Shown here piece by piece: positions 8,499-60,112 of a stretch of DNA of 64,000 bases (the stretch's first letter is position 1; each line of letters begins with the position of its first letter). The notes below the pieces were generated by a model. The model did not search any database. It had not been told where the DNA came from and was given only the letters and a program-made list of their open reading frames with translations. The stretch is from a bacterium (lineage in GTDB: Bacteria; UBA10199; JACPAL01; GCA-016699445): assembly GCA_036274695.1 (NCBI GenBank), contig DASUFF010000173.1:105-64104 (forward strand), given 5' to 3'. A program made the position numbers and the translations under genes.

Positions 8499-8629
8499 AA
8501 GTGATTATAAAGCAATGCCGGTGCCAAGAGCAGGCCTCGACGGAGCCTTCCAACTATTTGATTTAATTATTATTTTTTGCGAAGAGGTTTGAGGGATCTT
8601 CCTAAAGTGGTGACCTAACCCCCCGAAAT

Positions 8630-46997: not shown

Positions 46998-47726
46998 GTG
47001 CCTCTCATCCCTTCACCTTCCTTGTCGCCCGCGCTGCTGGCCGGCTTTCGCCCGTCGTCCATCGACCGGATTTCCCCGTCGCAACCGGGCGTTTACTTCG
47101 ACGCGCCCGGCGCCGGGACCTCCGTCGTTCACGTCGGGAGGGACGTTCCGGCGCCCGTCATCGACCTTCTGCGCTTCATCCGCGACGAAGCCGAACGCGG
47201 GCGGAAGCGCAAGGGCGTCGAGACATCGTACCGCGAAGGCGGGATCGGCCCTAAGTGGTCGCTCCGTCCCGAAAGGGCGGAAGCGGGGTGCCTCCAGGCG
47301 AAAATCGTTCTAGGCGGCGTGGAAATGGTTTACGGCGGCCGCCCGCTGTGGATGCCGAATCAATTGGAAATCCGCCGGTCGCGGGCGTCCTTCGAAGGAC
47401 TGTTCACGGCCGTCCAATGTCTGACTTTCCTGCCCGGTTCCGACGCGCCGACGTGCCGGGCCGAATCCGGCCGGCGCACGCTCACCATGAAGGGCTTTGA
47501 CAACGCCGCCATGAAGCAACTTTCATGGGAATCGCTGTCGAAGGATCCGGCCTTCGAAGGCTGGCTGAAATCGACCGACCGGTTCGGCGGCGCCCTCCAC
47601 AACCGCGCCGGCGGCGAGCATCTCCGCGTGACCAGGGACGCGCAGCGCCTCACCGTCGAATGGAGACTCACCGTCTCCCCGTTGCCGGAGGCGGTACGGT
47701 CCCGTTGGGATTTCGTTCTCGAATAA
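46998..47726 (+). CDS. hypothetical protein
   Basis: 242-aa ORF. No recognisable domain. Confidence 0.4.
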   Translation: MPLIPSPSLSPALLAGFRPSSIDRISPSQPGVYFDAPGAGTSVVHVGRDVPAPVIDLLRFIRDEAERGRKRKGVETSYREGGIGPKWSLRPERAEAGCLQAKIVLGGVEMVYGGRPLWMPNQLEIRRSRASFEGLFTAVQCLTFLPGSDAPTCRAESGRRTLTMKGFDNAAMKQLSWESLSKDPAFEGWLKSTDRFGGALHNRAGGEHLRVTRDAQRLTVEWRLTVSPLPEAVRSRWDFVLE

Positions 47727-47860
47727 AAATCGCTTCTGTTCATTTTATTAGACAATTCTTGGAAAATTGACCTCAGTTAGTTGTGACTTTCTTCCTCCCG
47801 CAGCTACCGTTCCGAGAGTGAAAAACGTGCGAAATCAACCGGTTGAACCTTAGGCCTCCG

Positions 47861-47876
47861 TGGCATGAGCCTTGCT
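47861..47876 (+). promoter_or_regulatory. sigma-54 (-24/-12) promoter TGGCAT-gagcc-TTGCT
   Basis: Exact GG-N10-GC spacing. Lies 31 nt upstream of the SD+ATG at 47907. Confidence 0.5.
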
Positions 47877-47906
47877 TTTGCTTCTCTCCGAGAAGGAGAG
47901 CCAACC

Positions 47907-48395
47907 ATGTCCCACATATCTTTTTCCCACCGGCTGCCGGTCGACGACGACCCCGTCCTCGATGACATCCAGTCGCGCTTTCAGACGGGCGGTTCGGAGA
48001 TCGCGCAGATCATCGCCGCGGGCGAGGCCCAGGCCCAAGGCGGACGGGAGATCATGGGCGTCTTGACCGGCTTGATGGCGGGTTCCTCGAGTCCCGGCCA
48101 TGTAGCGACGGCCTCAGGAAGCAATCCCAGGCAGACGGGGGCCGCCGTCGCGGGGGGTCTCGGAGGGGCGGCGTTGGCGGGCGCTGCGGGGGCGGGCATC
48201 GCTCAGGCGGCGCAGAAGAACAAGGGCGCCAGGGAGCTGAACAAGCTCGAGAGAGGCGCCAAAAGGGATTTCCGTCAGCTGGAGCGCCAGACCGCCAAGC
48301 AGGAGCGAATCGATGCCCGGCAGGAACGGAAAGATCTGCAGGAACCGGAGATTATCCTGGACGCTTCCCGTGAGTGGCCGTCACCGTCGTCGTGA
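47907..48395 (+). CDS. hypothetical Gly/Ala-rich protein
   Basis: Start chosen downstream of the -24/-12 element with GAAGGAGAG SD. 3' end overlaps queF convergently by 44 nt. Confidence 0.4.
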
Positions 48396-48714
48396 TCCCG
48401 CCGCGCACGTTGAAAGCGCCGATCACTTCCATCCAGCGCGGGGCGCAGGCGGCAACCAAATCGTTGAGGATCAAGTTGGTGACCTTTTCGAAAAAATGGC
48501 CCTCGTTCCGGAAGGACCACAAATACAGTTTGAGCGACTTCAGCTCGAGGCAGCTCTTGTCCGGCACATAGCGGATGGTGATCGTCGCGAAGTCCGGCTG
48601 GCCCGTCTTGGGACAGAGGCTGGTGAACTCGGGGCAGACGGAGTCGATGACGTAGTCGCGACCAGGCTCGGGATTGGGGAAGGTCTCAAGCGTTTTCGAC
48701 GGCTGGGTACTCAC
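48352..48714 (-). CDS. queF: NADPH-dependent 7-cyano-7-deazaguanine reductase
   Basis: [11 protein letters not shown] (QueF Cys motif) and an E(S/L)K(S)LKLYL-like motif. Confidence 0.85.
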
Positions 48715-49252
48715 AGGGGCCTCCTAAGATGTTGTCGCGGTCGGACGCGTCTATTTTTTCGTAGGAAAAAGACCACAGCGAGCGGCCTTCCTTTTTCCAT
48801 TTGTCGGCGTAAAACGTCATAAACTCGACGCCATCGTCATGGGAGACGAAGGAAGCGGCGAACGCAGCGAAGACCTCCCGGATCTGCGCGACATAGTTCG
48901 GATCGTCGTGGGCCACATAGACCCTCCCGCCGGGCTTGAGCACGCGAAGGACCTCGCCCACGAATTTTTCCTGAAAGAGACGGTTCTTGGCGTGACGCTT
49001 CTTGGGCCAGGGGTCGGAAAAGAGGATGAACACCTTTTCGAATTCGGCCTCGGCGCATTGCTGCAGGAAGACCTTGGCGTCCATGCAGACGAGCTCGATG
49101 TTGGTCAAACCCCGCTTTTCGATCCGCGCGACCAGCTTCTCGCAGCGCTTCTCCTTCACCTCCACGCCCACGACGGCGGCCAGCGGGTTCTCAGCCGCCA
49201 GGTGGAACAAAAAATCCCCGCGTCCGGGGCCGATTTCCAAAAGCTTCTTCAT
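48686..49252 (-). CDS. trmB: tRNA (guanine46-N7)-methyltransferase
   Basis: EIGPGRG SAM motif, [10 protein letters not shown]. Confidence 0.85.
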
Positions 49253-49380
49253 GAGCCGGACAGTTTCGGGAATCGCGCCCGATCCGTCAAGGCCCCATCA
49301 AAGACCCCGCTTTGTTAAACCAGGTTAACGTTTTTCATCGAAAAACGCTCCGGGCTCCCTGATTTAGCTGGGAAATTCCC

Positions 49381-49396
49381 TGGCCGGGCCTTTGCA
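49381..49396 (+). promoter_or_regulatory. sigma-54 promoter TGGCCG-ggcct-TTGCA
   Basis: Perfect -12 TTGCA. GG-N10-GC spacing. 25 nt upstream of ATG with GAGGAGAG SD. Confidence 0.5.
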
Positions 49397-49420
49397 ATTC
49401 CAAAGTCCGAGGAGAGAAAC

Positions 49421-49774
49421 ATGGGCACGACGATCAACGACCATCGACAGGAGCAACCGATTTCGCCTTTCGATTACATGTCCGACAACAACAAGACCGT
49501 CGCCATGGGCCAGATCCTGGGAATGGAATTCGCCTTGCAGCAGTCGGCTCTCGACCGGGACATGCAACACGCCGCCGCCCTGGAATTGGGTCTCGAAAAG
49601 CTCGACACCAACCTGCAGGTGTCCAAGATGAACGCCATCCAGCAAATGTCCGCGGAAGAGAACCACCACATCGAGAAAATGACCCAGATCAAGCAGAAGC
49701 ATGCCGCCCTGGAGAGCAGCGGGCCCCGCTATGTCGAGATCGCCCCGCCCGAGTTTTTTACGGATTCCTTCTAG
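49421..49774 (+). CDS. small uncharacterised protein, paralog family S copy 4
   Basis: 117 aa. Shares P..DY, DNNKT.AMGQI, ANLE/ALELGLEKLD, NHH.EKM and C-terminal F.TD.F with copies at 6.0-7.3 kb. Confidence 0.55.
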   Translation: MGTTINDHRQEQPISPFDYMSDNNKTVAMGQILGMEFALQQSALDRDMQHAAALELGLEKLDTNLQVSKMNAIQQMSAEENHHIEKMTQIKQKHAALESSGPRYVEIAPPEFFTDSF

Positions 49775-49800
49775 CCCCGGTTCCTGCTAACAGTCGTCCG

Positions 49801-50724
49801 GTGGACGAGCCCCTCCAGCGCTACCTCGATTTCCTGAAGGTCGAAAAGGGCCTCTCGAAGAACACGCTCGCCGCCTACGGCACCGACCTGCACGCCTTCC
49901 ACGAATTCGCGAAGACCCGTAAAAAGACCACCTGGGCCGATGTTACCTCTCAGGACGTCTTGGAGCACGTCATGAAGCTCTCGGATGGCGTCGACAGCAC
50001 CGGAAGGGCTTCCGGCAAGTCGCTCAAGGCCCGTTCTCTCGCGCGGCATCTCATCGCCATCCGCGGCCTCTACAAATTCCTCCTGAAGGAAGGGGAGGTG
50101 AAGAAAAATCCCACCGCGCTGGTGGAGCTTCCCAAGGCGGGCAGGAAACTGCCGAACTTTCTCACATTGGACGAGATCGACAAAATTCTGAGCGTCTCGC
50201 ACGGCCGCTCCCAGGAAGGACCCGAAGGGGTCCGGAACGAGGCGATGATCGAGCTCCTCTACGCCACGGGCCTGCGCGTCTCGGAGCTGGTGAACTTGAC
50301 CGTCGACGACCTCCACATGGAACGAGGTTTCCTCAAGACAATGGGGAAGGGGAAGAAGGAGAGGATCGTGCCGATGGGCAAGTCGGCGATTCAAATCCTC
50401 CAGCTCTATCTCGCCACCGCCCGCGAAACGCTTCGTAAAGGCCGGTCGACGCAGGCCCTGTTCGTCACGCGGCTGGGCAAGGCGATGTCCCGCCAGATGT
50501 TCTGGAAACTCTTGAAAGACCTCGCCCGCAAGGCGGGCATCAAAAAGGATTTGAGCCCGCACGTCCTGCGCCATTCCTTTGCCACGCACTTGGTCCAGAG
50601 GGGCGCCGACCTCCGAAGCGTCCAGGCCATGCTGGGACACGCCGACATCTCCACCACGCAGATCTACACGCACCTGAACCTCGCCCATTTGAAGGGCGTC
50701 GCATCGAAACATCCGCGGGCTTAA
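49801..50724 (+). CDS. xerD: site-specific tyrosine recombinase XerD
   Basis: ELLYATGLRVSEL, HVLRHSFATHL and LGHADISTTQIYTH (R-H-R-Y catalytic residues). GTG start. Confidence 0.85.
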   Translation: MDEPLQRYLDFLKVEKGLSKNTLAAYGTDLHAFHEFAKTRKKTTWADVTSQDVLEHVMKLSDGVDSTGRASGKSLKARSLARHLIAIRGLYKFLLKEGEVKKNPTALVELPKAGRKLPNFLTLDEIDKILSVSHGRSQEGPEGVRNEAMIELLYATGLRVSELVNLTVDDLHMERGFLKTMGKGKKERIVPMGKSAIQILQLYLATARETLRKGRSTQALFVTRLGKAMSRQMFWKLLKDLARKAGIKKDLSPHVLRHSFATHLVQRGADLRSVQAMLGHADISTTQIYTHLNLAHLKGVASKHPRA

Positions 50725-51755
50725 ATTCGGCGAGAAACCAGCGAAGCGGCCTGCGGAGGTAAAAGGGAGATCCCGGCCTCCAACGCCTTTTTCCACTGTT
50801 TGCCCCCCTCGCGCGCCTCTTGAAACGCCTTCTTCAATTCCATCGGGCGCTCGTCCGCACACGCCGTAATCAGACGCTCGGCTTGAACCACGTCCTTTTT
50901 CTTTTTCGCGTCCTCCGTCACCGATCGTCGCTGGCTGACGGTCAGCTTATGGGCGGCGAAACGGCAGGGATCCGGGACCGTCACCGGAACGCCTCCCCAA
51001 GGGACGACGAGAACCGCCCGGATGGGATCCTTGAGAAGAAAGTCCAGGAAGGGAAGAGCCTCCGCTCCGACGTCCTCCATACCCACGGCTTTATAAGAAG
51101 GTCTCGGCTTTCCTCGTTGCGGGACGAGGAAATCGATCCGAAGCCCGTTCGGCGCGACGAAACGGCTGGCGAGTTGTTTCAAAGAAAGCGGAGGGATCGG
51201 CCGGAACTCTTCGGGCAAGACCTCTTTGGATTTCTTCAGGGGCCGGTCTTTCGGATGGAGTCGCGCGTCTCCGAGTACGTCGATATCGAGGGTTCGAACG
51301 GAGTTTTTGTCGAACAGCCGACCCAAAACGCCGGCGTAAGCCATGAAAGCGTAGGAACCGATCAAGACGCCGGAGCGATCGATGAGGCCGTGAGAGGACA
51401 ACGTCTCCAGAACCGCGCTCGAATCGGCGTCCGGGAAGGGAAGGCCGGCGCGTCTTAAGGCGGCGGAACGCCTTTCTTCGTCGGAACGCATTTTTTTGAT
51501 CAGCTCTTTCCTCTCCCTCCGCGCTTTGCGATATGCCTCCGCGCGCGCGTCGGACGCCGCATCCGAAGGCCCTTCATAGGTTTGTCGGGCTTGACCTTCC
51601 ACGTAACGTTGTCGGTACCAGTAGGATTTCCCCTTTACCGTTTTCCGGACGAGCGTCTCTTCCTGCGCTTCCGTCCTTTCGAGATCGAAACGCACGAAGA
51701 CCGCTTCCTGAAATTCCGCGAAGAGATTGCGAATGGCCAGGTCCAAGGTCGGCAT
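50721..51755 (-). CDS. hypothetical protein with pol-beta-superfamily nucleotidyltransferase-like motif
   Basis: GSYAFMAYAGV...(x20)...LDIDVL resembles the hG[GS]-x9-13-[DE]h[DE] NTase signature. Otherwise unrecognised. Confidence 0.4.
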   Translation of the reverse strand: MPTLDLAIRNLFAEFQEAVFVRFDLERTEAQEETLVRKTVKGKSYWYRQRYVEGQARQTYEGPSDAASDARAEAYRKARRERKELIKKMRSDEERRSAALRRAGLPFPDADSSAVLETLSSHGLIDRSGVLIGSYAFMAYAGVLGRLFDKNSVRTLDIDVLGDARLHPKDRPLKKSKEVLPEEFRPIPPLSLKQLASRFVAPNGLRIDFLVPQRGKPRPSYKAVGMEDVGAEALPFLDFLLKDPIRAVLVVPWGGVPVTVPDPCRFAAHKLTVSQRRSVTEDAKKKKDVVQAERLITACADERPMELKKAFQEAREGGKQWKKALEAGISLLPPQAASLVSRRI

Positions 51756-51756
51756 G

Positions 51757-51800
51757 GTTATACGTTATAATTTATAATTATCTACTTTTCAACGTATAAC
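51757..51800. promoter_or_regulatory. AT-rich operator-like palindrome at the start of the 50721-51755 gene
   Basis: Perfect 10-bp inverted repeat GTTATACGTT ... AACGTATAAC flanking a 24-nt AT-only spacer (ATAATTTATAATTAT...). AT-rich island in a 65% GC context. Confidence 0.45.
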
Positions 51801-51905
51801 TTTTCTTTCAGCCCGCTACCGGGGGACTCGCATAGATTGTGAATGCCTGACACTCACACTTTAACAACCCCATAAAAATTAGCCTCTGATTTCAAGCAAT
51901 TAGAT

Positions 51906-51921
51906 TGGCATCGTGATTGCT
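51906..51921 (+). promoter_or_regulatory. sigma-54 promoter TGGCAT-cgtga-TTGCT
   Basis: Same -24/-12 hexamers as the promoters at 47861 and 57368. Followed by a ~285-nt leader before the lipoprotein gene. Confidence 0.45.
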
Positions 51922-52204
51922 CCTTCACGTCTTCAACGAGGAGGCGAGCCTGAGAGCCGGCGGTGCGAACGAAAAAATCCAAGACGGACTCGGCGCGCTT
52001 TCCAGGGAATGAGGATTTAAAATTTAAAGTTTGAGGAGACCCGCTAAGTCCCAACCTCGCGATCATGGTGATTGCGGGGCGACTGCCCATCCCCCAGCGG
52101 GTCTCCTCTTTTCCGGTTGAAAAAGACGATGCAAAGTCTTCGATTTTCTTCTGGAAACTCGTTGCCTATACTGGTCGATAATAGAACCGAAGAAGGGCTT
52201 AACT

Positions 52205-53080
52205 ATGCGTTTGCGGTCGTTTTCATCTCTGAGCGTCCTCTTGGCGTTATCGCTCTTAGGCTCTTCCGTTCTTCTGACCGGCTGTCCGGCCGCCTTTGCG
52301 CCCACCAATCCTCTGGCCGCGAGCCGCGCGGATTCCAACGTAACTCCCGGCGGCGGGAATAATGAGGACTCCGGCGAGGCTCCGGCGTCCGTCGTCGATC
52401 CTTCCGGTCCTGCGGCGGACGGCGCGAATCCGGCCTCCGGCGGCCCGTTCGGGATTCCTTCCCAACAAGACGGCAAGGGCGGCGACATCGCCTCCAATGC
52501 GAACAGCGGTACGATCGCCGCGGCCGGCGACACGGCCGACGCGGGCAAAGAGAGGCTGACGATCACGTTCCGGAAGGTCCGCTACGGCCACAACCTGAAA
52601 GGCCAGCTGCCGGACCCTCCCGCCACGGGATTTCTCTCCGCCAACCCGCAAGGGCCGACCGATCTCCCGCTTTTGATCGGCTACCTCAGCGCCAACAGCC
52701 AGCTCCTGAAGGGTTATCCGGAAGGTTCGCAGATACGTTTGATCTTTTATCCGGAAGTCATCACCAAGCCGACGACTTATGTGGACGGCGGGCCGATGAA
52801 CGCCTTCAACGCCCCGGTCAAAGCCGCCGACGGACCGAATTTCCTCTTCAACGATCTCGACCTCGGCAAGGGAACGCTCGAAATCTATTCCTTCGAAGAC
52901 CCGATTTACGACGAGACGGGCAGCTACGCGATGGCGCACACCGCCGATTACCACGAGGGGGATTTGATTCCCTTCGCCGACCCGTCCCAGTTGACCGATT
53001 TCCTCAACGACACCCTGCACGTCCACCACGTCGGCACCTTCAAGGTGATCTACGGCTACGCGACCGGAAATCCGCACTAG
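52205..53080 (+). CDS. putative lipoprotein
   Basis: Signal peptide with LLTGC lipobox, Gly/Ala/Pro-rich linker, then a globular domain. Confidence 0.55.
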   Translation: MRLRSFSSLSVLLALSLLGSSVLLTGCPAAFAPTNPLAASRADSNVTPGGGNNEDSGEAPASVVDPSGPAADGANPASGGPFGIPSQQDGKGGDIASNANSGTIAAAGDTADAGKERLTITFRKVRYGHNLKGQLPDPPATGFLSANPQGPTDLPLLIGYLSANSQLLKGYPEGSQIRLIFYPEVITKPTTYVDGGPMNAFNAPVKAADGPNFLFNDLDLGKGTLEIYSFEDPIYDETGSYAMAHTADYHEGDLIPFADPSQLTDFLNDTLHVHHVGTFKVIYGYATGNPH

Positions 53081-53083
53081 AGA

Positions 53084-56000
53084 TTAACCCAGAGCCTTCT
53101 CGATCATCTCCTTGAGCGACGCCGCCCCCGGGTCGATGCCCGCCCGCTCCAGGCGGGCGTAGAGGCTCCGCCGCGAGATTCCCAAGGCCTTGGCCGCCTT
53201 GCCCTTGTGGTAGCACTGGTCGCGCAACGCCTTGAGCGTCTCCGTGACGATCGGAGGGAGAGAGTCTTTCGAAACCGCTACCGAAGCGGAACCGCCACTC
53301 CCCGAAAAAGAAGGGGACGAAGTCCCCCCCTCGAAGAGGGCCGGCTTGAACGACAGCGACGCCCGCGTGATCGTTCCTTTCTCCGCGAACAGGACGGCCG
53401 TCTCCAGGGTGTTCTGAAGTTCCCGAATATTACCCGGCCACGCATAGCCCATGAAGATCCGGAGGACACCGGGCTCGAGCTTCACCGGCGTCTTGCTCTC
53501 CCGTCCGCCGATCCTTTTCAAAAAATGCTCCGCCAGGAGCGGCAGGTCTTCCAGGCGTTCGCGCAGGGGAGGGAGCTTCACGGTGATGCCGTTCAAGCGG
53601 TAGAAGAGATCTTCGCGGAATTTTCCTTCGGCCACCAGCGCGCGCAGGTCCTTGTTGGAGGCCGAAACCACGCGGGCGTCCACGCGCACGGGCTCGGCGG
53701 CGCCGATGGGACGCACCTCGCCCTCTTGCAAGAAACGCAGGAGCTTGGCCTGGAGGTTCAGGCTCATGTCGGCGATCTCGTCCAAAAAGACCGTGCCGCC
53801 GTCGGCGTATTGGAGGAGGCCTTTCTTGTCGGAGACGGCGTGCGTGAAGGCGCCTTTCTTATGGCCGAAGAGCTCGCTTTCCAAGAGGGACTCGGGCAAA
53901 GCGCTGCAATTCTCGGTGACGAAGGCCTTCTTCGAGCGGCCGCTGTTGAAGTGCAGGGCGCGCGCGATGGCCTCCTTGCCGGTGCCGGATTCGCCGTAGA
54001 TCCAGACGGGGATCTTGGCGTCGGTGATGCGGTCGACGACGGAGAGGACCTCCACCATCTTGGGCGAGCGCCCGACGATGTCGCCGTATTCCTTCTTCAA
54101 GATCATCCGCGTGCGGTTGACCTCTTTCTGGAGGTTCTGCACCTCGCCTTCCTGTTCGCCGATCTTGACCTCCATCTCGGTGTTCCGTTTTTTAAGCCCC
54201 TCGATCATCTTCGCCTTTTGAAGCGCGAGGGCCGCGATCCCGGCGAAGGCCTTCAGCACGTCCAAAATCTCGCCCTCGAAGAGGCCCTTTTGGAAACGGT
54301 GGTCGAGATAGAAGACCCCCAGGACGCCATCCGGACCGGTGACCGGCAGGGCCAGGATGGATTTGAGCTGGAGGAGCTGGACGCTCTTGGCCTCGCGAAA
54401 GGCCGGATCGATCATCGCGTTGTCGGTGACGACGGCGTCTCCCGTCTGCAGGGCGCGGCGCACCGCGGAAAGGCTGAAGCTGTAGAGATCCGTGCCGAGG
54501 TCCTCCTTCGCGACGTTCCTCGCCACCGCGATGTCGAATCCCGGAATGGGGCCGTTCGGAACGTCGCTGCGGAGGACCAAAAATCCGTTCTCGGCCCCCG
54601 CGATCCTCATCGCCGAGTCCATCAGGCGCTCCAGCACGCGCTGCATGTCGTCCTCTTTCAGGAGGGATTGATTGAGTTCCATCAGAATGGGCAGGACCTG
54701 GGTCATGGGACTGTCTCCTTTCGGTTTTTTCTCGGCGGGAACGGCCGATCGGTTTTTCCAATCCCCGCGTTCCACGAACGTCACCTGGAATTCGGTCGGC
54801 AACGACTCGTAGATCCGTTGGAGGACGTCGGCGGGGAGGGCGTCGGTCCCGTCGCGCAGGGCCGCGAGCCTCTTGGACGTTTCGGCGGCGAGAGCGCGGC
54901 CGTTGGGCCCCGCGGCTTCCATCTCCTTCAAGGCCTCCGCGGCCTTGGCGAAGCGTCCGAGCGAGGCCTCCGTCACCGCCAGCTCCTTCCGGTTCTGGAT
55001 CCATTCCTCGATCCCGCCGATGAAACGCAGGACGTCCCCCGCGCGCCGGAGCGATTCCCAGGACGCGGCCAGATGGCCACGGGCTCGCTCGAGCACGCCC
55101 TGGTTGTTGTGGGCGACGGCCTGGCGCAGGTCCGAGCCCGCTTCGCGCGCGAAGCCTTCCGCCGCCGCGTAGGCCGACGCCGCCGGTTCGATCTTTCCGT
55201 GATCGAGGGCGAGGTTGCCCTCCTCGAGGGACGTCCAAAAAAGCCCTTCCAAATGATGCTCGGAGGCGTAAAGCGCCCGCGCTTCGCCGAGCAGCCGGCG
55301 GGCCGCCTCCCAATCGCCGCCCCGCGAGCGGAGGGTGGCCAGGGTTCTCAAGGCCTCGGCCTTGAGCGCCGGAGCGGCGTCCGAGACCCCGATCTTTTCC
55401 AGACAGGCGACGGCCTCGGGCAGGCGCCCGCGCCGGAGCTCTTCGAGTCCGAGCAGCGAGAGGGCCTTCAGGCGGAAGGGACGCGTGCCGCGCTCGTCCG
55501 GCAAGCCGACGCCGGTCTTGAGCCTCTCGATGGCCTCGTCGCTTCTTCCCAAGTTCTGGCAGGCCTGGCCGGTCACCAGCCAGTACTTGGCGGTGCGCAC
55601 GGCGTCCGTTTCATCGCCGGCGCGAAGGTGAAACCAGTCCTCGCAGGAGGTCAACGCTTCTTCACGGCGTCCGAGGTCGTTCAAGAGGTTGGTCCTCATT
55701 CTTAAGAGGCGCGATTTTTCGTCGGGCTTCGAAACGAGGGGCAGGACGCGCTCGACCAAGGCCAGCGCCGGGGCGTAGCGGCGCCGGCGGCGGAGGTCTT
55801 CGGCGATCTCGCGCGCCTCGGGACCGGCGGCGTCGGCGTCGCCCGATGCGACGGCCCGAATCAGAGAGGGCGGGACGAAGCGATCGTCCAAGGGCCTCTC
55901 GCGCGAGGCCTGGTCCCTCAAGAAACTCCTCCACTCGCCGGCCAGACGGCCCTCGCGCACCAGTTTTTTTTGGGCGAGGAAGCGGATGCGCTCCACGAGC

Positions 56001-57265
56001 CGCGCCGGATTTCCCGCCGTATCCTCGAAGAGAGTCGCCGCCGCCTCGGCCGCGGCCCGGGGGCCGAAGGCGAGGGCGATCAGCGATTCGGTCTCGGCCC
56101 CGTCCAGATCCCTCAAGGCGACGTCGATCGTTTCCGGATTTTTCAGCAGCTCGCGGACGAGGCGGGCGAAGGGTTCCGGCTGGGCGTCATCGCTCCACGT
56201 CACGAGGACCAAGCCCGGCTTGGGTTCGCGAAGGCGGTGATAGAGGCGGGAGAGCTCGTCGGGGGCGAGGAACTCCGCGCCGTCGAAGACCTCCACCGGG
56301 ACATCGCGAAGCCGGCCTTCCAAAGACACCTCGCGCGCGAACCGCGATTTGCCGCTGCCGGAGGGACCGTGAACGGCCAGGAGGAGCGGCGACGACGAGG
56401 CGGCTGCGCGGGAAAGTGCGTCCTGGATTTTCTTCCAGGCGTCCTCGGCGCCGATCATGCGCGCCGGATGGAACTCCGAGAGGGCGGCGGCCCCGTCGGA
56501 ACGCCCGGTCTGCAGGGCGTTCCGGATTTCGCGGGCGCCCGAAAAGCGCTCGGAAGGGGAGACGGCCAGCATCCGTTCGATCACCCGCGCCGCGAGCGGA
56601 TGAGCGGCGGCGAACGCGGGGGCGGATTCGAGGAAAGGATCGGCCGGCCGTTCGAGGAAATCCCGCAGGCTCCGGCACCCGAGACGCGGATGCCGCCCGG
56701 CCAGCGCTTCGTAGAAAACGGTGGCGTACGAAAACAGGTCGCCCGAGGGCAGGCGATGCCCGTCGATCCGCTCCGGCGCCATGTAGGGGAGGGTGGCCAT
56801 CTCCAGGCGGGCCTCGTCGCCGAAGCCGATGGAGAGGTCCACGAGGCGCAGCCGTCCCTCGCGGTCGATCAAAAGATTGGAGGGGGAGAGATCGCCGTGG
56901 AGGAGGCCCTGCGTGTGGAGGGCGTCCAGCGCGTCCAGGCCTTCGAGGAACCAGTGGAGGATTTTTTCCGCGCCGGCGCCGCGCGCGGCGTTCAGGATCC
57001 CGTCCCCGTCCACGAACTCCATCCAGTAGGCGGGGCCGCGGTCGTCTCCGAAAATCTCGCGGCTGTCGGTGGCGAACCCCAGGACCGGCACCAACGAGGG
57101 ATTTTGAAGACGGGTCAGGACGCGCACTTCATGCGCGAAGACGGCGGACGAACGCCCCTTGGGCAGGAGCTTCAAGGCGACACGCCGGCCTTCCGGAGAG
57201 ATCGCATCGAAGACCTCGCCCATGCCGCCGGAGGTCAAAGCCGTCAGGGATGTCCAGGCACACAC
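53084..57265 (-). CDS. multidomain regulator: Ser/Thr protein kinase, P-loop (STAND-like) NTPase, TPR repeats, GAF, sigma-54 interaction AAA+ domain, Fis-type HTH
   Basis: Kinase HGDLSPSNLL..DLS(DFG-like). GPSGSGKS P-loop. Long TPR region. GAF domain. GESGTGKE/GAFTHA/ESELFGH sigma-54 activator motifs. C-terminal AKALGISRRSLYARL. Confidence 0.8.
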   Translation of the reverse strand: MCAWTSLTALTSGGMGEVFDAISPEGRRVALKLLPKGRSSAVFAHEVRVLTRLQNPSLVPVLGFATDSREIFGDDRGPAYWMEFVDGDGILNAARGAGAEKILHWFLEGLDALDALHTQGLLHGDLSPSNLLIDREGRLRLVDLSIGFGDEARLEMATLPYMAPERIDGHRLPSGDLFSYATVFYEALAGRHPRLGCRSLRDFLERPADPFLESAPAFAAAHPLAARVIERMLAVSPSERFSGAREIRNALQTGRSDGAAALSEFHPARMIGAEDAWKKIQDALSRAAASSSPLLLAVHGPSGSGKSRFAREVSLEGRLRDVPVEVFDGAEFLAPDELSRLYHRLREPKPGLVLVTWSDDAQPEPFARLVRELLKNPETIDVALRDLDGAETESLIALAFGPRAAAEAAATLFEDTAGNPARLVERIRFLAQKKLVREGRLAGEWRSFLRDQASRERPLDDRFVPPSLIRAVASGDADAAGPEAREIAEDLRRRRRYAPALALVERVLPLVSKPDEKSRLLRMRTNLLNDLGRREEALTSCEDWFHLRAGDETDAVRTAKYWLVTGQACQNLGRSDEAIERLKTGVGLPDERGTRPFRLKALSLLGLEELRRGRLPEAVACLEKIGVSDAAPALKAEALRTLATLRSRGGDWEAARRLLGEARALYASEHHLEGLFWTSLEEGNLALDHGKIEPAASAYAAAEGFAREAGSDLRQAVAHNNQGVLERARGHLAASWESLRRAGDVLRFIGGIEEWIQNRKELAVTEASLGRFAKAAEALKEMEAAGPNGRALAAETSKRLAALRDGTDALPADVLQRIYESLPTEFQVTFVERGDWKNRSAVPAEKKPKGDSPMTQVLPILMELNQSLLKEDDMQRVLERLMDSAMRIAGAENGFLVLRSDVPNGPIPGFDIAVARNVAKEDLGTDLYSFSLSAVRRALQTGDAVVTDNAMIDPAFREAKSVQLLQLKSILALPVTGPDGVLGVFYLDHRFQKGLFEGEILDVLKAFAGIAALALQKAKMIEGLKKRNTEMEVKIGEQEGEVQNLQKEVNRTRMILKKEYGDIVGRSPKMVEVLSVVDRITDAKIPVWIYGESGTGKEAIARALHFNSGRSKKAFVTENCSALPESLLESELFGHKKGAFTHAVSDKKGLLQYADGGTVFLDEIADMSLNLQAKLLRFLQEGEVRPIGAAEPVRVDARVVSASNKDLRALVAEGKFREDLFYRLNGITVKLPPLRERLEDLPLLAEHFLKRIGGRESKTPVKLEPGVLRIFMGYAWPGNIRELQNTLETAVLFAEKGTITRASLSFKPALFEGGTSSPSFSGSGGSASVAVSKDSLPPIVTETLKALRDQCYHKGKAAKALGISRRSLYARLERAGIDPGAASLKEMIEKALG

Positions 57266-57367
57266 ACCGCAGAGGATACTATCAAACTGTGAATGTGTCT
57301 ATCGCCCGTGACACTCACATGAGGGCATCGAAAAGGCTCTCTTCTTTTAAAATCAAGTAGTTATGCT

Positions 57368-57383
57368 TGGCATCCTGATTGCT
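57368..57383 (+). promoter_or_regulatory. sigma-54 promoter TGGCAT-cctga-TTGCT
   Basis: 27 nt upstream of ATG 57410 with GGAAGGAG SD. Divergent from the kinase-EBP gene. Confidence 0.55.
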
Positions 57384-57409
57384 CTTTAACCCTCCCGGAA
57401 GGAGCAATT

Positions 57410-58078
57410 ATGGGAAACGACAAGTGCGACGCCTTGGGAGGAATCAGCGGTCCGGACGTGTGCGCCTTCGACACGCCGGAGGGCGGGTTCACCGTCCAGG
57501 CCCTTTCCTGCGATAAGAACGCCTTCGCCCAGGTTCAAGACGCGGCATTTACGAAAGAGGATCTGGCGACGATCAGCCGTGTCACCAACTCGAACGCCCT
57601 CGTCACCTTCGCCCTTTGCACCGACTCCTACCGCAGCGGCGTCCTCGGCATCGCCCCGGACGCCCTGGCCAAGCAGCACGACTCCAGCCTGAAGCTCTTT
57701 CGGCAAAAATGCGGGACGTCCGGCATGGACAAGGCCAAGTGCGACGCCGTCGACAAGACCGCCGAGGAGAATGCCCCCGAGAAGGAGCATTGGATCTGGG
57801 AATGGTTCCGGGAAATGCGCACGGGCATCTTCTTCGCCGCCGGCGCCATCCTCTTGGACCGGATTTTCCGGAAGCCGACCGACAAGGGCGGCGGCCAGGG
57901 GTTGAGTTCCGAGACTCCGACGACGACCGTCACCGCCGAAGATTTTAAAAAACTTTACGCCGACCCGATGTCCGCCGGCGCCCTCGACTTCGCCGCCGGT
58001 TCGGCGCCGTCGGCGAAAACCTTAATCGCCCCCGTCGCAATGCCCTTGGGAGGGGCGATCCTCGTTCCGGCTTATTGA
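57410..58078 (+). CDS. hypothetical Cys-rich protein with central TM segment
   Basis: 222 aa. N-terminal domain with 8 Cys, hydrophobic segment GIFFAAGAILL. No signal peptide. Confidence 0.5.
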   Translation: MGNDKCDALGGISGPDVCAFDTPEGGFTVQALSCDKNAFAQVQDAAFTKEDLATISRVTNSNALVTFALCTDSYRSGVLGIAPDALAKQHDSSLKLFRQKCGTSGMDKAKCDAVDKTAEENAPEKEHWIWEWFREMRTGIFFAAGAILLDRIFRKPTDKGGGQGLSSETPTTTVTAEDFKKLYADPMSAGALDFAAGSAPSAKTLIAPVAMPLGGAILVPAY

Positions 58079-58093
58079 AAAGGAAATTCCACC

Positions 58094-59551
58094 ATGGGCA
58101 CTTCGATCCTATTTCCCAATCCTCTCATAAACGCCGGCGGCCTCGGCATGCGCTCGGTCGCCGTGACGGCGGACGCTCCGTTCGGCTTCGCCAAGGCGAC
58201 CTTCGAGCCGGTGGCGGGGACGGGCGGGCCGGCGGGCCCTCAGGTCCCGGGCGCGTTCAGCATCACCGCCGGCCTTTTGACCAGCGTTTTGGCGCCCAAA
58301 CTTTTCGACAAATACGTCACGCAGGACCTGCTGGTCCGTAACGGACTTCTTCCTCAAGGAGCGGCTCCGTTCGTAAACCTCGGCGGCTCCCTGGGCATGG
58401 CCGAACTGCTCCGCGCCGGGGGCTTAAGCCCGGTCGGCGCCTTGGGCGCCTTGAAGATGATGCCGCTGCTCACGGGACTCCGCCTCTTCCTAGATCCCGT
58501 CGCCTTCGATCTCCTGGGAGTTCCGAGGGACGCGTTCACGGAAACCGCCGTCGACGCCGCCTCCATGGCGCCTCTCTTTTTCGCCCAACAGTCGCCCTTG
58601 GCCGCGAGCCTCTTGGGACTCGGGGAAGGGGCCACGCTCCTCACTCCGGGGGTCTGGGTTTCGGCGCTGGGGAAGGTCAAGCTGATCGACGTCGCCTCCG
58701 GCCTCGGCGTGACCTACGGCGCCCGGCTCTACTTCGGCCTGTCCAGCGACCGCCCGGACCTCGATACGGGCCTTTGGGATTTGAGCGTCGCCAGTGTTCA
58801 CGAAACCGTTTCGGAGGAACTCGCCCTCGGCAAATATTTGCCCAACCTCGCGGCCGCCTCCGTCACCATCGTCTCCCTCTGGAGCGACTATGTCTGGAAG
58901 GTGGACGCCGCCGACTCCATGCGCGCCAAGATCGAGGCCAAATTTGATCAGAAGATGGAAACCATCCGCTCCCAGGCGGACGCCCTCGGAAAATTCCTCG
59001 ATCAGAACCTGGCGGGTGCCGTCGCACAAAACATCCGGCAGGACCCGTCCGGCGGCTTCTCCGTCGATTGGGACGGCGTCCGTCGCTCCGTCAAGGCGTT
59101 CTATCACTCGAGCGACAACAAGGAGCTGGGTCCCGCCTACGATTTCGTCGAGGGAAACCGTGAGCTTCTGGGATTCAAGGACGCCCTCACCCTGACCGCT
59201 CTGGTGGACCGGGACGGAAACATCGCCGACCTGGAGGACTTCAAAAAATATTTTTACGTCAAATTCGCCCTCGAGAGACGGGAACTGGAAAAGGATCTCG
59301 AGGCGAAGGCCTGGGAACTGGAAGTCGTGGAAGAGGAGGACGGCCGGGTCCGCCTCAAAACCCCCGAAGCTCCGGACGGCGCCGAAGGAGAGGGCGGCTT
59401 TTCGGCCGAAAACCCCGATTCGCCGGAGGCGTTTTATTTCCGGCAGGTCGCCTTCGTAAACGGCGACGCCGCCGCCCTTTCGCGGCGCATTCTGCTTTTG
59501 TCGATCCTCGAAGGACTTTTGAAGACCGAAGGAGACTCCCATGCCCGATAA
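58094..59551 (+). CDS. hypothetical protein
   Basis: 485 aa. Gly/Ala/Leu-rich N-terminal half and charged C-terminal half. 16-nt spacer to the upstream gene. Confidence 0.5.
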   Translation: MGTSILFPNPLINAGGLGMRSVAVTADAPFGFAKATFEPVAGTGGPAGPQVPGAFSITAGLLTSVLAPKLFDKYVTQDLLVRNGLLPQGAAPFVNLGGSLGMAELLRAGGLSPVGALGALKMMPLLTGLRLFLDPVAFDLLGVPRDAFTETAVDAASMAPLFFAQQSPLAASLLGLGEGATLLTPGVWVSALGKVKLIDVASGLGVTYGARLYFGLSSDRPDLDTGLWDLSVASVHETVSEELALGKYLPNLAAASVTIVSLWSDYVWKVDAADSMRAKIEAKFDQKMETIRSQADALGKFLDQNLAGAVAQNIRQDPSGGFSVDWDGVRRSVKAFYHSSDNKELGPAYDFVEGNRELLGFKDALTLTALVDRDGNIADLEDFKKYFYVKFALERRELEKDLEAKAWELEVVEEEDGRVRLKTPEAPDGAEGEGGFSAENPDSPEAFYFRQVAFVNGDAAALSRRILLLSILEGLLKTEGDSHAR

Positions 59552-60095
59552 CAAGAAAATAGTTCCGTCCGCGCCCGTCTTCGGAGGCATCTGCACGCCG
59601 GACGGGGATTATGAAATCGCCCCGGAGGATACCGGAAGCGGCGGGATCAAGACGGTCGACACGTACATCGCCCCGGCCTTCAAGGACCTTCACGTCCTGA
59701 TCGAAGAATTGATCGTCGCCGAGTTGCAGCGCCCGAAATACGACTCCGTTTGGAACGAATACGGCTTCGCGGGCATCGTGGACCTGCACGACCGGCTGCG
59801 AACGGAGCTTAGGTCCGAGTTCAGCGCCCGCATGGGCTGGTTGGGCGTCGCGGAATTCCTGGACGCGCCCGCGGGCTCTTATCAGGACATGGCCTCCTCC
59901 CTGGAAGCAGCGGCTCAATACGTCTTCGACAAGGTTCCCCCTCAAGCGCCTCCACGAGGCGCCGACCGCCTCAAACCCCGCTTCGAAGACCGGTCGAAGG
60001 CCTTCGAAAAAGGCGAAAGCGCGAGGAAAGTCTCCGAAGACGCGCTCCAGACCAAAAGGGGAAAACCGGAAGCCCGCGAAAAACTTTTCAAATAA
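59541..60095 (+). CDS. hypothetical protein
   Basis: 184 aa. Overlaps the upstream gene by 11 nt, suggesting translational coupling. Confidence 0.45.
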   Translation: MPDNKKIVPSAPVFGGICTPDGDYEIAPEDTGSGGIKTVDTYIAPAFKDLHVLIEELIVAELQRPKYDSVWNEYGFAGIVDLHDRLRTELRSEFSARMGWLGVAEFLDAPAGSYQDMASSLEAAAQYVFDKVPPQAPPRGADRLKPRFEDRSKAFEKGESARKVSEDALQTKRGKPEAREKLFK

Positions 60096-60112
60096 CGACG
60101 AAGGAGCGATTT

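What the first reader, a model, noticed from the sequence alone, without database searches (positions are those of the whole stretch)
53084..57265. 1393-aa fusion of a eukaryotic-like Ser/Thr kinase, STAND-type NTPase, TPR array, GAF and a complete sigma-54 activator
A single uninterrupted ORF joins an N-terminal Hanks-type kinase, a GPSGSGKS P-loop module, ~500 aa of TPR-like repeats, a GAF domain and the AAA+ sigma-54 interaction domain (GESGTGKE, GAFTHA, ESELFGH, Fis HTH). A kinase fused to an EBP would let phosphorylation or ligand sensing feed directly into RpoN-dependent transcription of the divergent neighbour cluster. This is an uncommon architecture.
Basis: partly seen in the sequence, partly recalled or inferred. 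Interest (0 to 1): 0.7.

Follow-up and report, generated by a model that had tools for sequence, protein, structure and literature searches.

The report
Kinase–STAND–TPR–GAF sigma-54 activator fusion
This is a real 1393-residue bacterial regulator that joins a Ser/Thr-kinase sensor module to a complete sigma-54 transcription activator and sits beside the promoters it most likely controls, but the same design already exists in about a hundred database protein families, so it is a new member of a known, unstudied kind.

Summary
Window 53084-57265 (-) is one uninterrupted 1393-aa ORF with Pkinase, AAA_16 (STAND P-loop), a TPR-like solenoid, GAF, a sigma-54 AAA+ domain and a Fis-type HTH. Every quoted motif is present. 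It is not a fusion artefact: independent assemblies hold colinear full-length homologues at 37-59% identity.

The C-terminal 540 aa is a complete NifA-type activator. The N-terminal 860 aa is a PknK/MalT-like input module, and it is atypical in three ways:
- The kinase keeps the main catalytic residues but has Ser for the catalytic-loop Lys (HGDLSPSN) and DLS for DFG.
- The STAND core has no winged-helix domain.
- The STAND Walker B is non-canonical.

A sigma-54 promoter (57368-57383) lies 27 nt before the divergent gene. A palindromic upstream element occurs only there and at a second sigma-54 promoter (51906) on the other side of the gene. A divergent sigma-54 promoter recurs in six homologous gene copies at five other loci.

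The architecture is not rare. At least 79 clusters (90% identity) and 85 representatives (50% identity) carry it, in Sorangium and other Myxococcota, Nitrospirales and Edwardsbacteria. None appears to have been characterised. Verdict: real, ordinary in kind, of modest interest.

The parts
53084..57265 (-). Whole ORF, 1393 aa, kinase-STAND-TPR-GAF-AAA+-HTH regulator (GTG start)
56501..57253 (-). Hanks-type Ser/Thr kinase domain, residues ~5-255. It is non-RD (HGD), has Ser instead of the catalytic-loop Lys, and has DLS for DFG
   Evidence: Pfam Pkinase 5e-22; alignment to PknA 4ow8 at E 8e-21; clade alignment
55856..56449 (-). STAND-like P-loop NBD plus helical domain, residues ~273-470. Walker A is GPSGSGKS 300-307 and the GxP motif is G418-N-P420. 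No winged-helix domain follows
   Evidence: AAA_16; model and 6MFV match; about 110 aa missing relative to P0003/5/6/7/8
54851..55837 (-). TPR-like alpha-solenoid sensor, residues ~477-805
   Evidence: helical hairpins in the model at pLDDT 85-95; TPR structural matches; weak TPR_12/TPR_MalT Pfam hits
54221..54649 (-). GAF domain, residues 873-1015
   Evidence: Pfam GAF 35.7 bits; aligns to the NifA GAF domain in 9qq6_C
53351..54079 (-). Sigma-54 interaction AAA+ domain plus lid, residues 1063-1305 (GESGTGKE, ESELFGH, GAFTHA, FLDEIAD)
   Evidence: Sigma54_activat 5.5e-69; PDB NifA, NtrC1, ZraR and PspF matches
53144..53233 (-). Fis-type HTH (HTH_8), residues 1345-1374
   Evidence: aligned to the NifA C-terminus
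57368..57383 (+). Sigma-54 promoter-like -24/-12 element TGGCATCCTGATTGCT, 27 nt before ATG 57410
   Evidence: 4 sites with <=1 mismatch against 1.05 expected; the same position holds in homologous loci
57288..57319 (.). Candidate enhancer (UAS): imperfect palindrome TGTGAATGTGTC-N9-TGACACTCACA, ending 49 bp before the -24 element
   Evidence: The 11-mer occurs exactly twice in 64 kb (0.29 hits expected at <=1 mismatch), both times upstream of a sigma-54 promoter
57273..57301 (-). Sigma-70-like promoter (TAGACA-17-TATCCT) for the regulator gene itself; it overlaps the UAS
   Evidence: consensus match only
57410..62682 (+). Divergent cluster of five ORFs (222, 485, 184, 344 and ~460 aa) with no Pfam or PADLOC hits. 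One has a signal peptide and one a TM segment. An internal sigma-54-like site lies at 61255-61270
   Evidence: w61300 is homologous to L005 13088-14467
51838..51858 (.). Second copy of the UAS (TGTGAATGCCTGACACTCACA)
   Evidence: conserved in L090 as TGTGAGGGTCTGACACTCACA
51906..51921 (+). Second sigma-54 promoter-like element TGGCATCGTGATTGCT
   Evidence: conserved in L090
51934..52204 (+). Long structured leader or possible small RNA downstream of the second promoter
   Evidence: fold z = -3.2; the ~180-nt core is 94% identical in L090, and a 349-nt stretch spanning it is 92% identical in L093, while the adjacent protein is only 58% identical in L090; no Rfam hit
52205..53080 (+). 291-aa lipoprotein-like ORF, convergent with the regulator gene. 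It belongs to a fast-evolving ~300-aa family found just downstream of homologous regulators
62679..64000 (-). 3' part of a second, paralogous regulator (66% identity over the GAF end, AAA+ and HTH; GSFTHA), cut by the window end

Best explanation
The ORF encodes a genuine one-component sigma-54 enhancer-binding protein.

Output half (residues ~860-1393). This is a complete NifA-type GAF-AAA+-HTH activator. I infer that its HTH binds the palindrome TGTGAnTGTC...GACAnTCACA. That palindrome sits about 50 bp upstream of the -24 element of two sigma-54 promoters flanking the gene. One promoter drives the divergent five-gene cluster of unknown envelope/secreted proteins. The other drives a conserved structured leader plus a lipoprotein gene. 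As in other EBPs, a hexameric AAA+ ring would use ATP and the GAFTHA loop to open the sigma-54 closed complex.

Input half (residues 1-860). This is a PknK/MalT-like Hanks kinase, P-loop NBD-HD and TPR sensor. I infer that it keeps the AAA+ domain inactive until a ligand or protein partner binds the TPR and/or GAF. Nucleotide-dependent self-association of the P-loop module, together with kinase autophosphorylation, would then favour assembly of the active ring.

Shown: domain content, motif integrity, promoters, shared upstream element, conserved synteny.
Inferred: DNA-site assignment, direction of control, kinase activity, and the signal.
For: - Domains and motifs.
- The C-terminal 539 aa aligns end to end with the NifA structure 9qq6_C (E 2.6e-82) and with NtrC1, ZraR and PspF.
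- GAFTHA is a natural variant carried by D. vulgaris DVU2894, to which that study assigns a predicted flagellar regulon; it counts the variant among those that keep the activating function (PMC4641369). GAFTHA or GSFTHA occurs in 50 of 85 family representatives.
- Kinase: alignment to PknA keeps the G-loop, K32, E46, D125, N130, D143 and APE. K32, H123-G-D125, N130, D143 and APE are invariant in the clade, and the kinase is about 50% conserved, more than the STAND and TPR parts.
- The model of residues 258-862 (pLDDT 81) best matches the STAND-TPR protein 6MFV.
- Sigma-54 sites with <=1 mismatch: 4 found against 1.05 expected. One is 27 nt before the divergent ATG.
- The exact 11-mer TGACACTCACA paired with TGTGAATG occurs only at the two promoters flanking the gene. 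It is conserved in the close relative L090.
- In L001, L003, L005 (two paralogues), L007 and L088, each homologue lies about 150 bp divergent from a gene preceded by TGGCAY-N5-TTGC about 25-30 nt before its ATG. Most of these regions also carry a locus-specific repeat at the regulator-proximal end.
- STAND mechanism and the PknK precedent: PMC6468293 and PMC4601284.
Against: - No experiment exists on any member of this family that I could find.
- The catalytic-loop Lys is Ser and DFG is DLS. In P0002 and P0004 the alphaC Glu is Gln and the Gly-loop is degenerate. Kinase activity may therefore be weak or lost.
- The query's STAND core lacks the winged-helix domain, has no canonical Walker B, and Walker A is not conserved across the clade (GK-K, GR-S). 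A MalT-like nucleotide switch is therefore doubtful.
- The UAS-regulator assignment rests on proximity only. A 66%-identical paralogue with a similar recognition helix lies 5.4 kb away and could share or compete for sites.
- No rpoN, PP2C phosphatase or FHA gene was seen in the parts of the window examined (motif scan; Pfam on selected ORFs).
Confidence: 0.68

Rival explanations
1. The kinase domain is a pseudokinase. It binds nucleotide or serves as a dimerisation or scaffold surface that regulates the EBP allosterically, without phosphotransfer.
For: HGDLSPSN lacks the catalytic-loop Lys and DLS replaces DFG. In clade members P0002 and P0004 the alphaC Glu is Gln, and in P0002-P0004 the Gly-loop is degenerate. 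No phosphatase or FHA partner was found among the window ORFs scanned.
Against: K32, D125, N130, D143 and APE are invariant across the clade, and the domain is more conserved than the STAND and TPR parts. More distant family members have a fully canonical HRDLKPxN or HGDxKPxN loop. From general knowledge, not tested here: RIO, Bud32 and APH-type kinases work with an HxDLS/TxxN loop.
Confidence: 0.3
2. The protein is bifunctional, with two separate outputs. The kinase phosphorylates other cellular proteins in trans (as PknK does with VirS), while the EBP part independently activates the neighbouring promoters. Both respond to the same STAND/TPR/GAF sensor.
For: The same Pkinase-AAA_16-(TPR)-GAF input is fused to histidine-kinase, GGDEF or adenylate-cyclase outputs in other proteins (P0099-P0118), so the kinase is a constant part of a sensory cassette. 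PknK acts in trans (PMC4601284).
Against: No candidate substrate was identified, and nothing in the conserved neighbourhood resembles a known kinase substrate.
Confidence: 0.2
3. The long ORF is an assembly or frameshift artefact that joins a kinase gene to an EBP gene.
For: The contig is a metagenome-assembled genome and reads could not be inspected.
Against: Full-length colinear homologues occur in independent JGI, ENA, NCBI and Logan assemblies (P0002-P0008). A further 85 representatives carry both halves. Domain hits are all in one frame with no gap.
Confidence: 0.02
4. It is a NifA orthologue, or another named EBP, with an N-terminal extension.
For: The best NCBIfam hit is TIGR01817 nifA (354 bits), and the best PDB hit is NifA.
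Against: The score is below the nifA cutoff of 528.85, and every other equivalog is also below its cutoff. No nif genes are nearby, and the neighbours have no Pfam family.
Confidence: 0.02
5. It is part of an anti-phage or conflict system of the STAND (Avs-like) type, with a kinase effector.
For: It combines a STAND-like NTPase with a kinase. PADLOC kinase (PD-T4-6, Mad6, MkoA) and RtcR models hit at the domain level. A paralogue in L005 has a TCAD9 Pfam hit.
Against: The PADLOC hits are generic kinase or EBP domain matches. None of the six neighbours matches any defence model. The output is a classical transcription activator placed next to its promoters.
Confidence: 0.03

Closest known systems
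Kinase-EBP fusion proteins of Myxococcota (e.g. Sorangium cellulosum So ce56 'Protein kinase', P0056, 1576 aa; Polyangia, Labilithrix, Kofleriaceae and Sandaracinaceae MAGs)
   Same: The domain order is identical: Pkinase - AAA_16 - TPR - GAF - Sigma54_activat - HTH_8. The kinase is non-RD (HGD).
   Different: Identity is only ~34-40%. The myxobacterial proteins keep the catalytic-loop Lys (HGDVKPAN) and canonical GAFTGA, and are 100-400 aa longer with a full STAND NOD. The window organism is an uncultured delta-proteobacterium-like lineage, not obviously Myxococcota. None has been characterised experimentally as far as I could find. My recollection that the So ce56 genome and kinome papers mention such fusions could not be checked, because those papers are not held.
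NifA (GAF-AAA+-HTH sigma-54 activator)
   Same: Residues ~860-1393 align over the GAF, AAA+ and HTH domains with NifA 9qq6_C (E 2.6e-82). All AAA+ motifs are present.
   Different: The score is below the TIGR01817 cutoff. The query has an 860-aa N-terminal extension, GAFTHA instead of GAFTGA, and no nif context.
M. tuberculosis PknK and MalT-family STAND Ser/Thr kinases
   Same: A soluble Hanks kinase is followed by an AAA_16/STAND module and a MalT-like TPR region, and it is linked to control of a neighbouring operon (PMC4601284). JGI names several homologues 'PknK'.
   Different: PknK has no DNA-binding or AAA+ output and acts by phosphorylating VirS in trans. The query carries its own EBP output and lacks the winged-helix domain.
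MalT / PH0952 (STAND transcription activators with TPR sensor)
   Same: The predicted fold of residues 258-862 best matches PH0952 (6MFV), with a P-loop NBD, a helical domain with GxP, and a TPR sensor.
   Different: The query has no WHD and no canonical Walker B. Its effector is a sigma-54 AAA+ domain rather than a LuxR or ArsR HTH acting on sigma-70 promoters.
'Trifunctional serine/threonine-protein kinase/ATP-binding protein/sensor histidine kinase' proteins (e.g. P0106)
   Same: They share the same Pkinase-AAA_16-GAF input cassette.
   Different: Their output is HisKA/HATPase (two-component signalling) instead of an EBP.

Membership tests
Bacterial enhancer-binding protein (sigma-54 activator, AAA+) | AAA+ Walker A (GxxGxGKE) and Walker B (hhhhDE) | tested here: met
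   GESGTGKE 1091-1098; FLDEIAD 1160-1166; Sigma54_activat 5.5e-69 over the full profile 1-167/168
Bacterial enhancer-binding protein (sigma-54 activator, AAA+) | GAFTGA sigma-54-contacting loop | tested here: met
   GAFTHA 1138-1143 retains F and T. The G-to-H variant is invariant in the clade, occurs in 50 of 85 family representatives, and is carried by D. vulgaris DVU2894, where the variant is judged to retain the activating function (PMC4641369)
Bacterial enhancer-binding protein (sigma-54 activator, AAA+) | C-terminal DNA-binding HTH | tested here: met
   HTH_8 1345-1374, 23.5 bits against cutoff 22; aligned to the NifA HTH
Bacterial enhancer-binding protein (sigma-54 activator, AAA+) | Cognate -24/-12 promoter with upstream enhancer nearby | tested here: met
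   57368-57383 and 51906-51921, each with the shared palindrome; a divergent promoter recurs in six homologous gene copies at five loci
Bacterial enhancer-binding protein (sigma-54 activator, AAA+) | ATP-dependent activation of sigma-54 holoenzyme | not testable with these tools
   Needs in vitro transcription or reporter assays
Hanks-type (eukaryotic-like) Ser/Thr protein kinase | Gly-rich loop, beta3 Lys, alphaC Glu | tested here: met
   GGMGEV 13-18, K32, E46 aligned to PknA. E46 is Gln in P0002 and P0004
Hanks-type (eukaryotic-like) Ser/Thr protein kinase | Catalytic loop HRDLKxxN: Asp, Lys, Asn | tested here: inconclusive
   HGDLSPSN: D125 and N130 are present, Arg is replaced by Gly (non-RD), and Lys is replaced by Ser. 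Ser is shared by the close clade (12 of 85 representatives), while the others have Lys
Hanks-type (eukaryotic-like) Ser/Thr protein kinase | DFG Mg-binding Asp and APE motif | tested here: met
   D143 (as DLS) and APE 163-165, both invariant in the clade
Hanks-type (eukaryotic-like) Ser/Thr protein kinase | Phosphotransferase activity | not testable with these tools
   Needs an autophosphorylation assay
STAND NTPase (NOD = NBD-HD-WHD plus sensor) | P-loop NBD with Walker A | tested here: met
   GPSGSGKS 300-307; AAA_16 42.7 bits; alpha/beta core in the model. Walker A Lys/Ser is not conserved in P0005-P0008
STAND NTPase (NOD = NBD-HD-WHD plus sensor) | Walker B acidic residues at the end of the hydrophobic strand | tested here: inconclusive
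   LVLVTW-SDD. The clade consensus is LLEWNDD. The acidic pair is displaced by 2-3 residues
STAND NTPase (NOD = NBD-HD-WHD plus sensor) | Helical domain with GxP motif | tested here: met
   G418-N-P420 is invariant; helices at model residues 132-216
STAND NTPase (NOD = NBD-HD-WHD plus sensor) | STAND-specific winged-helix domain (defined in PMC6468293) | tested here: not met
   About 110 aa (the 'LSPxER ... LHHAL' segment) present in P0003, P0005-P0008 and the myxobacterial relatives is absent from the query, P0002 and P0004. The model shows no strand or wing after the helical domain
STAND NTPase (NOD = NBD-HD-WHD plus sensor) | Repeat sensor domain (TPR) | tested here: met
   The model's solenoid and its TPR matches. 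Pfam TPR hits are below cutoff
NifA (TIGR01817 equivalog) | Score at or above the curated cutoff; nif context | tested here: not met
   354.2 bits against cutoff 528.85; no nif genes nearby
Known anti-phage defence systems (PADLOC) | System-specific protein models in the regulator and its neighbours | tested here: not met
   Only generic kinase and RtcR-AAA domain hits; all six neighbours are negative

The most novel reading that the evidence does not exclude
The clade forms a family of self-contained 'Hanks-kinase to sigma-54' switches. Autophosphorylation by the fused, RIO-like (HGDLS) kinase would replace the receiver domain of two-component EBPs as the trigger for AAA+ ring assembly. In this uncultured delta-like lineage the family has expanded into tandem paralogues. 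Each paralogue would have its own private palindromic enhancer and a small, fast-evolving operon of secreted or envelope proteins, and here also a conserved non-coding leader or sRNA.
Probability: 0.25. Interest if true: 0.55.

Novelty: new member of a known kind. Interest (0 to 1): 0.35.

Why it matters
Crosstalk between Ser/Thr kinases and sigma-54 activators is known in myxobacteria, but only between separate proteins. A single polypeptide holding kinase, NTPase switch, two sensor domains and the activator would be a compact system for testing how Hanks-type phosphorylation or STAND-like oligomerisation gates an AAA+ transcription motor. This locus is convenient for that test because the likely targets are next door: two sigma-54 promoters with a shared, unique palindrome. 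The value is as a tractable example, not as a discovery of a new architecture. Databases already hold roughly a hundred such protein families, all annotated only generically.

Tried and rejected
- Literature. Eight full-text searches were run; the five aimed at the fusion found no paper describing a kinase-EBP fusion. The PNAS 2008 'myxobacterial kinome' paper is not held, so my recollection that such fusions were noted for Sorangium could not be verified.
- The look-up of encoding contigs for the exact protein: not on record.
- Genome-contig scan with the clade alignment. The tool chose generic EBP peptides (ESELFGHK, FLDEIADM), so most of the 80 loci are ordinary EBPs. Only L011, L014, L015, L020, L023 and L028 are kinase-EBP fusions, and none belongs to the close clade.
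- Lineage. DnaE hits name only 'Deltaproteobacteria bacterium' and 'bacterium' MAGs at 60-68% identity, so the phylum remains unresolved.
- Rfam on 47000-64000 at E<=1: no match.
- PADLOC: only generic domain hits, so a defence role was rejected.
- Homology search for the conserved partner ORF 52205-53080: only one homologue.
- Consensus folding of the leader from three sequences. There is too little variation (no compensatory pairs) and one sequence was clipped, so the structure remains unverified.
- Metagenome scan with a 20-mer from the leader: three hits, of which only L093 is homologous.
- No similar leader in the more distant loci.
- Pfam on selected window ORFs found no PP2C phosphatase or FHA gene, and a motif scan found no RpoN box.

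Full report

Yes. The minus strand of window 53084-57265 is one open reading frame of 1393 codons with a GTG start.

Pfam places six domains in a single frame:

| Domain | Residues | Support |
|---|---|---|
| Pkinase | 8-247 | E 5e-22 |
| AAA_16 | 273-394 | above cutoff |
| GAF | 873-1015 | above cutoff |
| Sigma54_activat | 1063-1229 | 5.5e-69, full profile |
| AAA_lid_14 | 1235-1305 | listed by Pfam |
| HTH_8 | 1345-1374 | above cutoff |

- The TPR claim rests on sub-threshold Pfam hits. I therefore modelled residues 258-862 with an alignment of eight clade members.
- The model (pLDDT 81) shows a P-loop alpha/beta core, a helical bundle and about nine helical hairpins.
- Its best PDB match is 6MFV, the PH0952 STAND ATPase with a TPR sensor. 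LGN/Pins TPR domains follow.
- The solenoid covers about 330-390 residues rather than ~500.

**2. Is it an artefact?**

No.
- The identical protein is deposited at NCBI.
- Colinear full-length homologues (P0002-P0008, 37-59% identity) come from independent JGI, ENA, NCBI and Logan assemblies.
- Their N-termini align to the GTG start (M-x-x-W).

**3. What the parts are**

*C-terminal half.* The last 539 residues align end to end with the solved NifA structure 9qq6_C (E 2.6e-82), and the AAA+ part also aligns with NtrC1, ZraR and PspF. This half is therefore a complete GAF-AAA+-HTH activator. It is not NifA itself: it scores 354 bits against a cutoff of 529, and no other NCBIfam equivalog reaches its cutoff either. 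The sigma-54 contact loop reads GAFTHA. This is a natural variant carried by D. vulgaris DVU2894 and judged there to retain the activating function (PMC4641369). It is invariant in the clade.

*Kinase.* It aligns to M. tuberculosis PknA (E 8e-21). The Gly-loop, K32, E46, D125, N130, D143 and APE are all in place. The catalytic loop, however, is HGDLSPSN (non-RD, Lys replaced by Ser), DFG is DLS, and the activation loop is short.
- Within the clade K32, HGD, N130, D143 and APE are invariant.
- The domain is about 50% conserved, more than the STAND (32-42%) and TPR (43%) parts. This argues for a functional domain.
- In P0002 and P0004 the alphaC Glu is Gln, and in P0002-P0004 the Gly-loop has degenerated. 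Catalysis is therefore not certain.
- From general knowledge, not tested here: RIO, Bud32 and APH-type kinases work with an HxDLS/TxxN loop.

*P-loop module.* It has Walker A (GPSGSGKS) and the helical-domain GxP motif. Walker B is displaced (LVLVTW-SDD). The ~110-residue winged-helix segment found in P0003, P0005-P0008 and the myxobacterial relatives is missing from the query, P0002 and P0004. The WHD is part of the definition of the STAND NOD (PMC6468293). The module is therefore STAND-derived rather than a canonical STAND.

**4. Targets**

A search for TGGCAC-N5-TTGCW with at most one mismatch finds four sites, against 1.05 expected.
- One site, TGGCATCCTGATTGCT at 57368-57383, lies 27 nt before the ATG of the divergent gene.
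- A near-identical site at 51906-51921 lies on the other side of the regulator gene.
- About 50 bp upstream of each -24 element sits the same imperfect palindrome: TGTGAATG...TGACACTCACA.
- The exact 11-mer occurs only at these two places in 64 kb, where 0.29 hits are expected even allowing one mismatch.
- A sigma-70-like promoter for the regulator gene overlaps the palindrome. This would allow autoregulation, but that is inference only.

The divergent cluster (57410-62682) holds five ORFs with no Pfam or PADLOC family. One has a signal peptide and one a TM segment.

The second promoter precedes a 270-nt structured leader and then a lipoprotein-like ORF (52205-53080).

**5. Comparative support**

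- In L001, L003, L005 (two tandem paralogues), L007 and L088, every close homologue lies about 150 bp divergent from a gene preceded by TGGCAY-N5-TTGC about 25-30 nt before its ATG.
- Most of these intergenic regions also carry an AT-rich spacer and a locus-specific inverted or direct repeat at the regulator-proximal end.
- By my own estimate from the pattern's degeneracy, the chance expectation for such a site in a given 150-bp region is about 3e-4.
- L089 (P0008) carries six such promoters in 17 kb.
- A fast-evolving ~300-aa protein family, which includes window 52205-53080, lies convergent just downstream of the regulator in L003 and twice in L005. Window 61300-62682 has a homologue next to it in L005.
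- The window also holds the 3' part of a second paralogue (66% identity, GSFTHA) at 62679 to beyond 64000.

**6. How common is the architecture?**

- In the word-indexed search, 79 of the 120 best 90%-identity clusters carry both Pkinase and Sigma54_activat. They come from Sorangium (including So ce56), Polyangia, Labilithrix, Kofleriaceae, Sandaracinaceae and unclassified MAGs.
- An exhaustive HMMER search of 1.84 billion representatives with the STAND-TPR-GAF part gave 89 proteins at E<=1e-30.
- Of the best 150 hits, 85 have a kinase catalytic loop and an EBP Walker A in one chain. Their catalytic loops are HGD..K in 37, HRD..K in 25 and HGD..S in 12, and GAFTHA or GSFTHA occurs in 50.
- Single-ORF fusions also occur in a Nitrospirales MAG and a Ca. 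Edwardsbacteria MAG.
- The same Pkinase-AAA_16-GAF input is fused to histidine-kinase, GGDEF and adenylate-cyclase outputs elsewhere.
- The host of this window is an uncultured lineage. Its DnaE is closest (60-68%) to 'Deltaproteobacteria bacterium' MAGs. An 85%-identical DnaE lies on the same 311-kb contig as homologue P0007.

**7. Mechanism**

*Shown:* a complete EBP output; adjacent sigma-54 promoters with a shared unique palindrome; conserved divergent synteny; a conserved but atypical kinase; a truncated STAND-like NTPase with a TPR sensor.

*Inferred:*
- The HTH binds the palindrome.
- The N-terminal 860 residues hold the AAA+ domain off until the TPR and/or GAF senses a signal.
- Self-association and/or autophosphorylation then promotes ring assembly and opening of the sigma-54 closed complex.

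*Rivals:*
- Pseudokinase rival (0.3). It is fed by the Lys-to-Ser and DFG-to-DLS changes, but countered by the invariant catalytic Asp, Asn and Lys residues.
- Trans-substrate rival (0.2). It is compatible with the main model.
- Artefact, NifA-orthologue and defence-system readings are rejected on the evidence above.

**8. Verdict**

The finding is real and correctly read in outline, but the architecture is already well represented in public data. It is annotated generically and apparently unstudied. This protein is a new member of that kind, with three clade-specific twists: Ser in the catalytic loop, GAFTHA, and loss of the winged-helix domain.

The most useful additions from this work are the predicted regulon (two sigma-54 promoters sharing a private enhancer) and a conserved non-coding leader noticed beside it. 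Interest is modest (0.35).

Noticed in passing
window 51934-52204 (+); L090 5381-5559; L093 ~14-361 (-): A structured leader or possible small RNA lies downstream of the sigma-54 promoter at 51906. Its ~180-nt core is 94% identical in L090, and a 349-nt stretch spanning it is 92% identical in L093, while the adjacent protein is only 58% identical in L090. A 1-nt indel breaks the only small ORF. A 13-bp-stem hairpin (GAGGAGACCCGCU...AGCGGGUCUCCUC) is followed by a U-tract and carries a C-rich internal loop GCCCAUCCCCC. There is no Rfam match. In L093 no sigma-54 promoter is visible upstream of it.
   Followed up: partly
window 62679-64000 (-): A second, paralogous regulator (66% identity over the GAF end, AAA+ and HTH; loop GSFTHA) is convergent on the end of the five-gene cluster and cut by the window end. 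L005 likewise carries two paralogues in tandem.
   Followed up: partly
window 61255-61270 (+) and 61140-61180: A weaker sigma-54-like site (TGGCATCTTTCCTGCA) lies 30 nt before ATG 61300 of the last cluster gene. Upstream it has a repeated GAATTCTCA motif instead of the TGTGA...TCACA palindrome. This may be the paralogue's target.
   Followed up: no
window 8511-8526 (-) and 47861-47876 (+): Two further sigma-54 promoter matches. One is a perfect TGGCACCGGCATTGCT ahead of ORF 7827-8498 and several small ORFs beginning MGGSTS. The other lies about 30 nt before ATG 47907. Neither has the palindrome.
   Followed up: no
window 49801-51755: A XerD-like tyrosine recombinase (Phage_integrase plus SAM-like N domain) and an NTP_transf_8 nucleotidyltransferase sit between the housekeeping genes and the regulator locus. 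In L090 the recombinase is present but the nucleotidyltransferase is replaced by a 145-aa ORF.
   Followed up: no
L001/L002 1-8317: Homologue P0005 lies next to a sterol-type gene set (squalene epoxidase, oxidosqualene/squalene-hopene cyclase, sterol methyltransferase-like, Rieske oxygenase, sulfotransferases) in an unclassified bacterial MAG (GCA_035281585.1).
   Followed up: no
L089 (Logan SRR17348322), whole 17 kb: Six sigma-54 promoter matches occur in 17 kb around homologue P0008. Two are identical (TGGCACAGCGATTGCT), each placed before a small ORF of unknown function.
   Followed up: no
window 53207-55705 (+) and 55846-57360 (+): Long ORFs of 832 and 504 aa lie on the strand opposite the regulator gene. 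They are Arg/Gly/Pro-rich shadow ORFs typical of GC-rich coding DNA, not genes.
   Followed up: partly
representative proteins P0256, P0261, P0262, P0267-P0272: About 1000-aa relatives have the HGDLSP kinase and STAND-TPR but no EBP motif, and ~600-880-aa relatives have only GAF-EBP. These could be split versions of the system or contig-end fragments.
   Followed up: no
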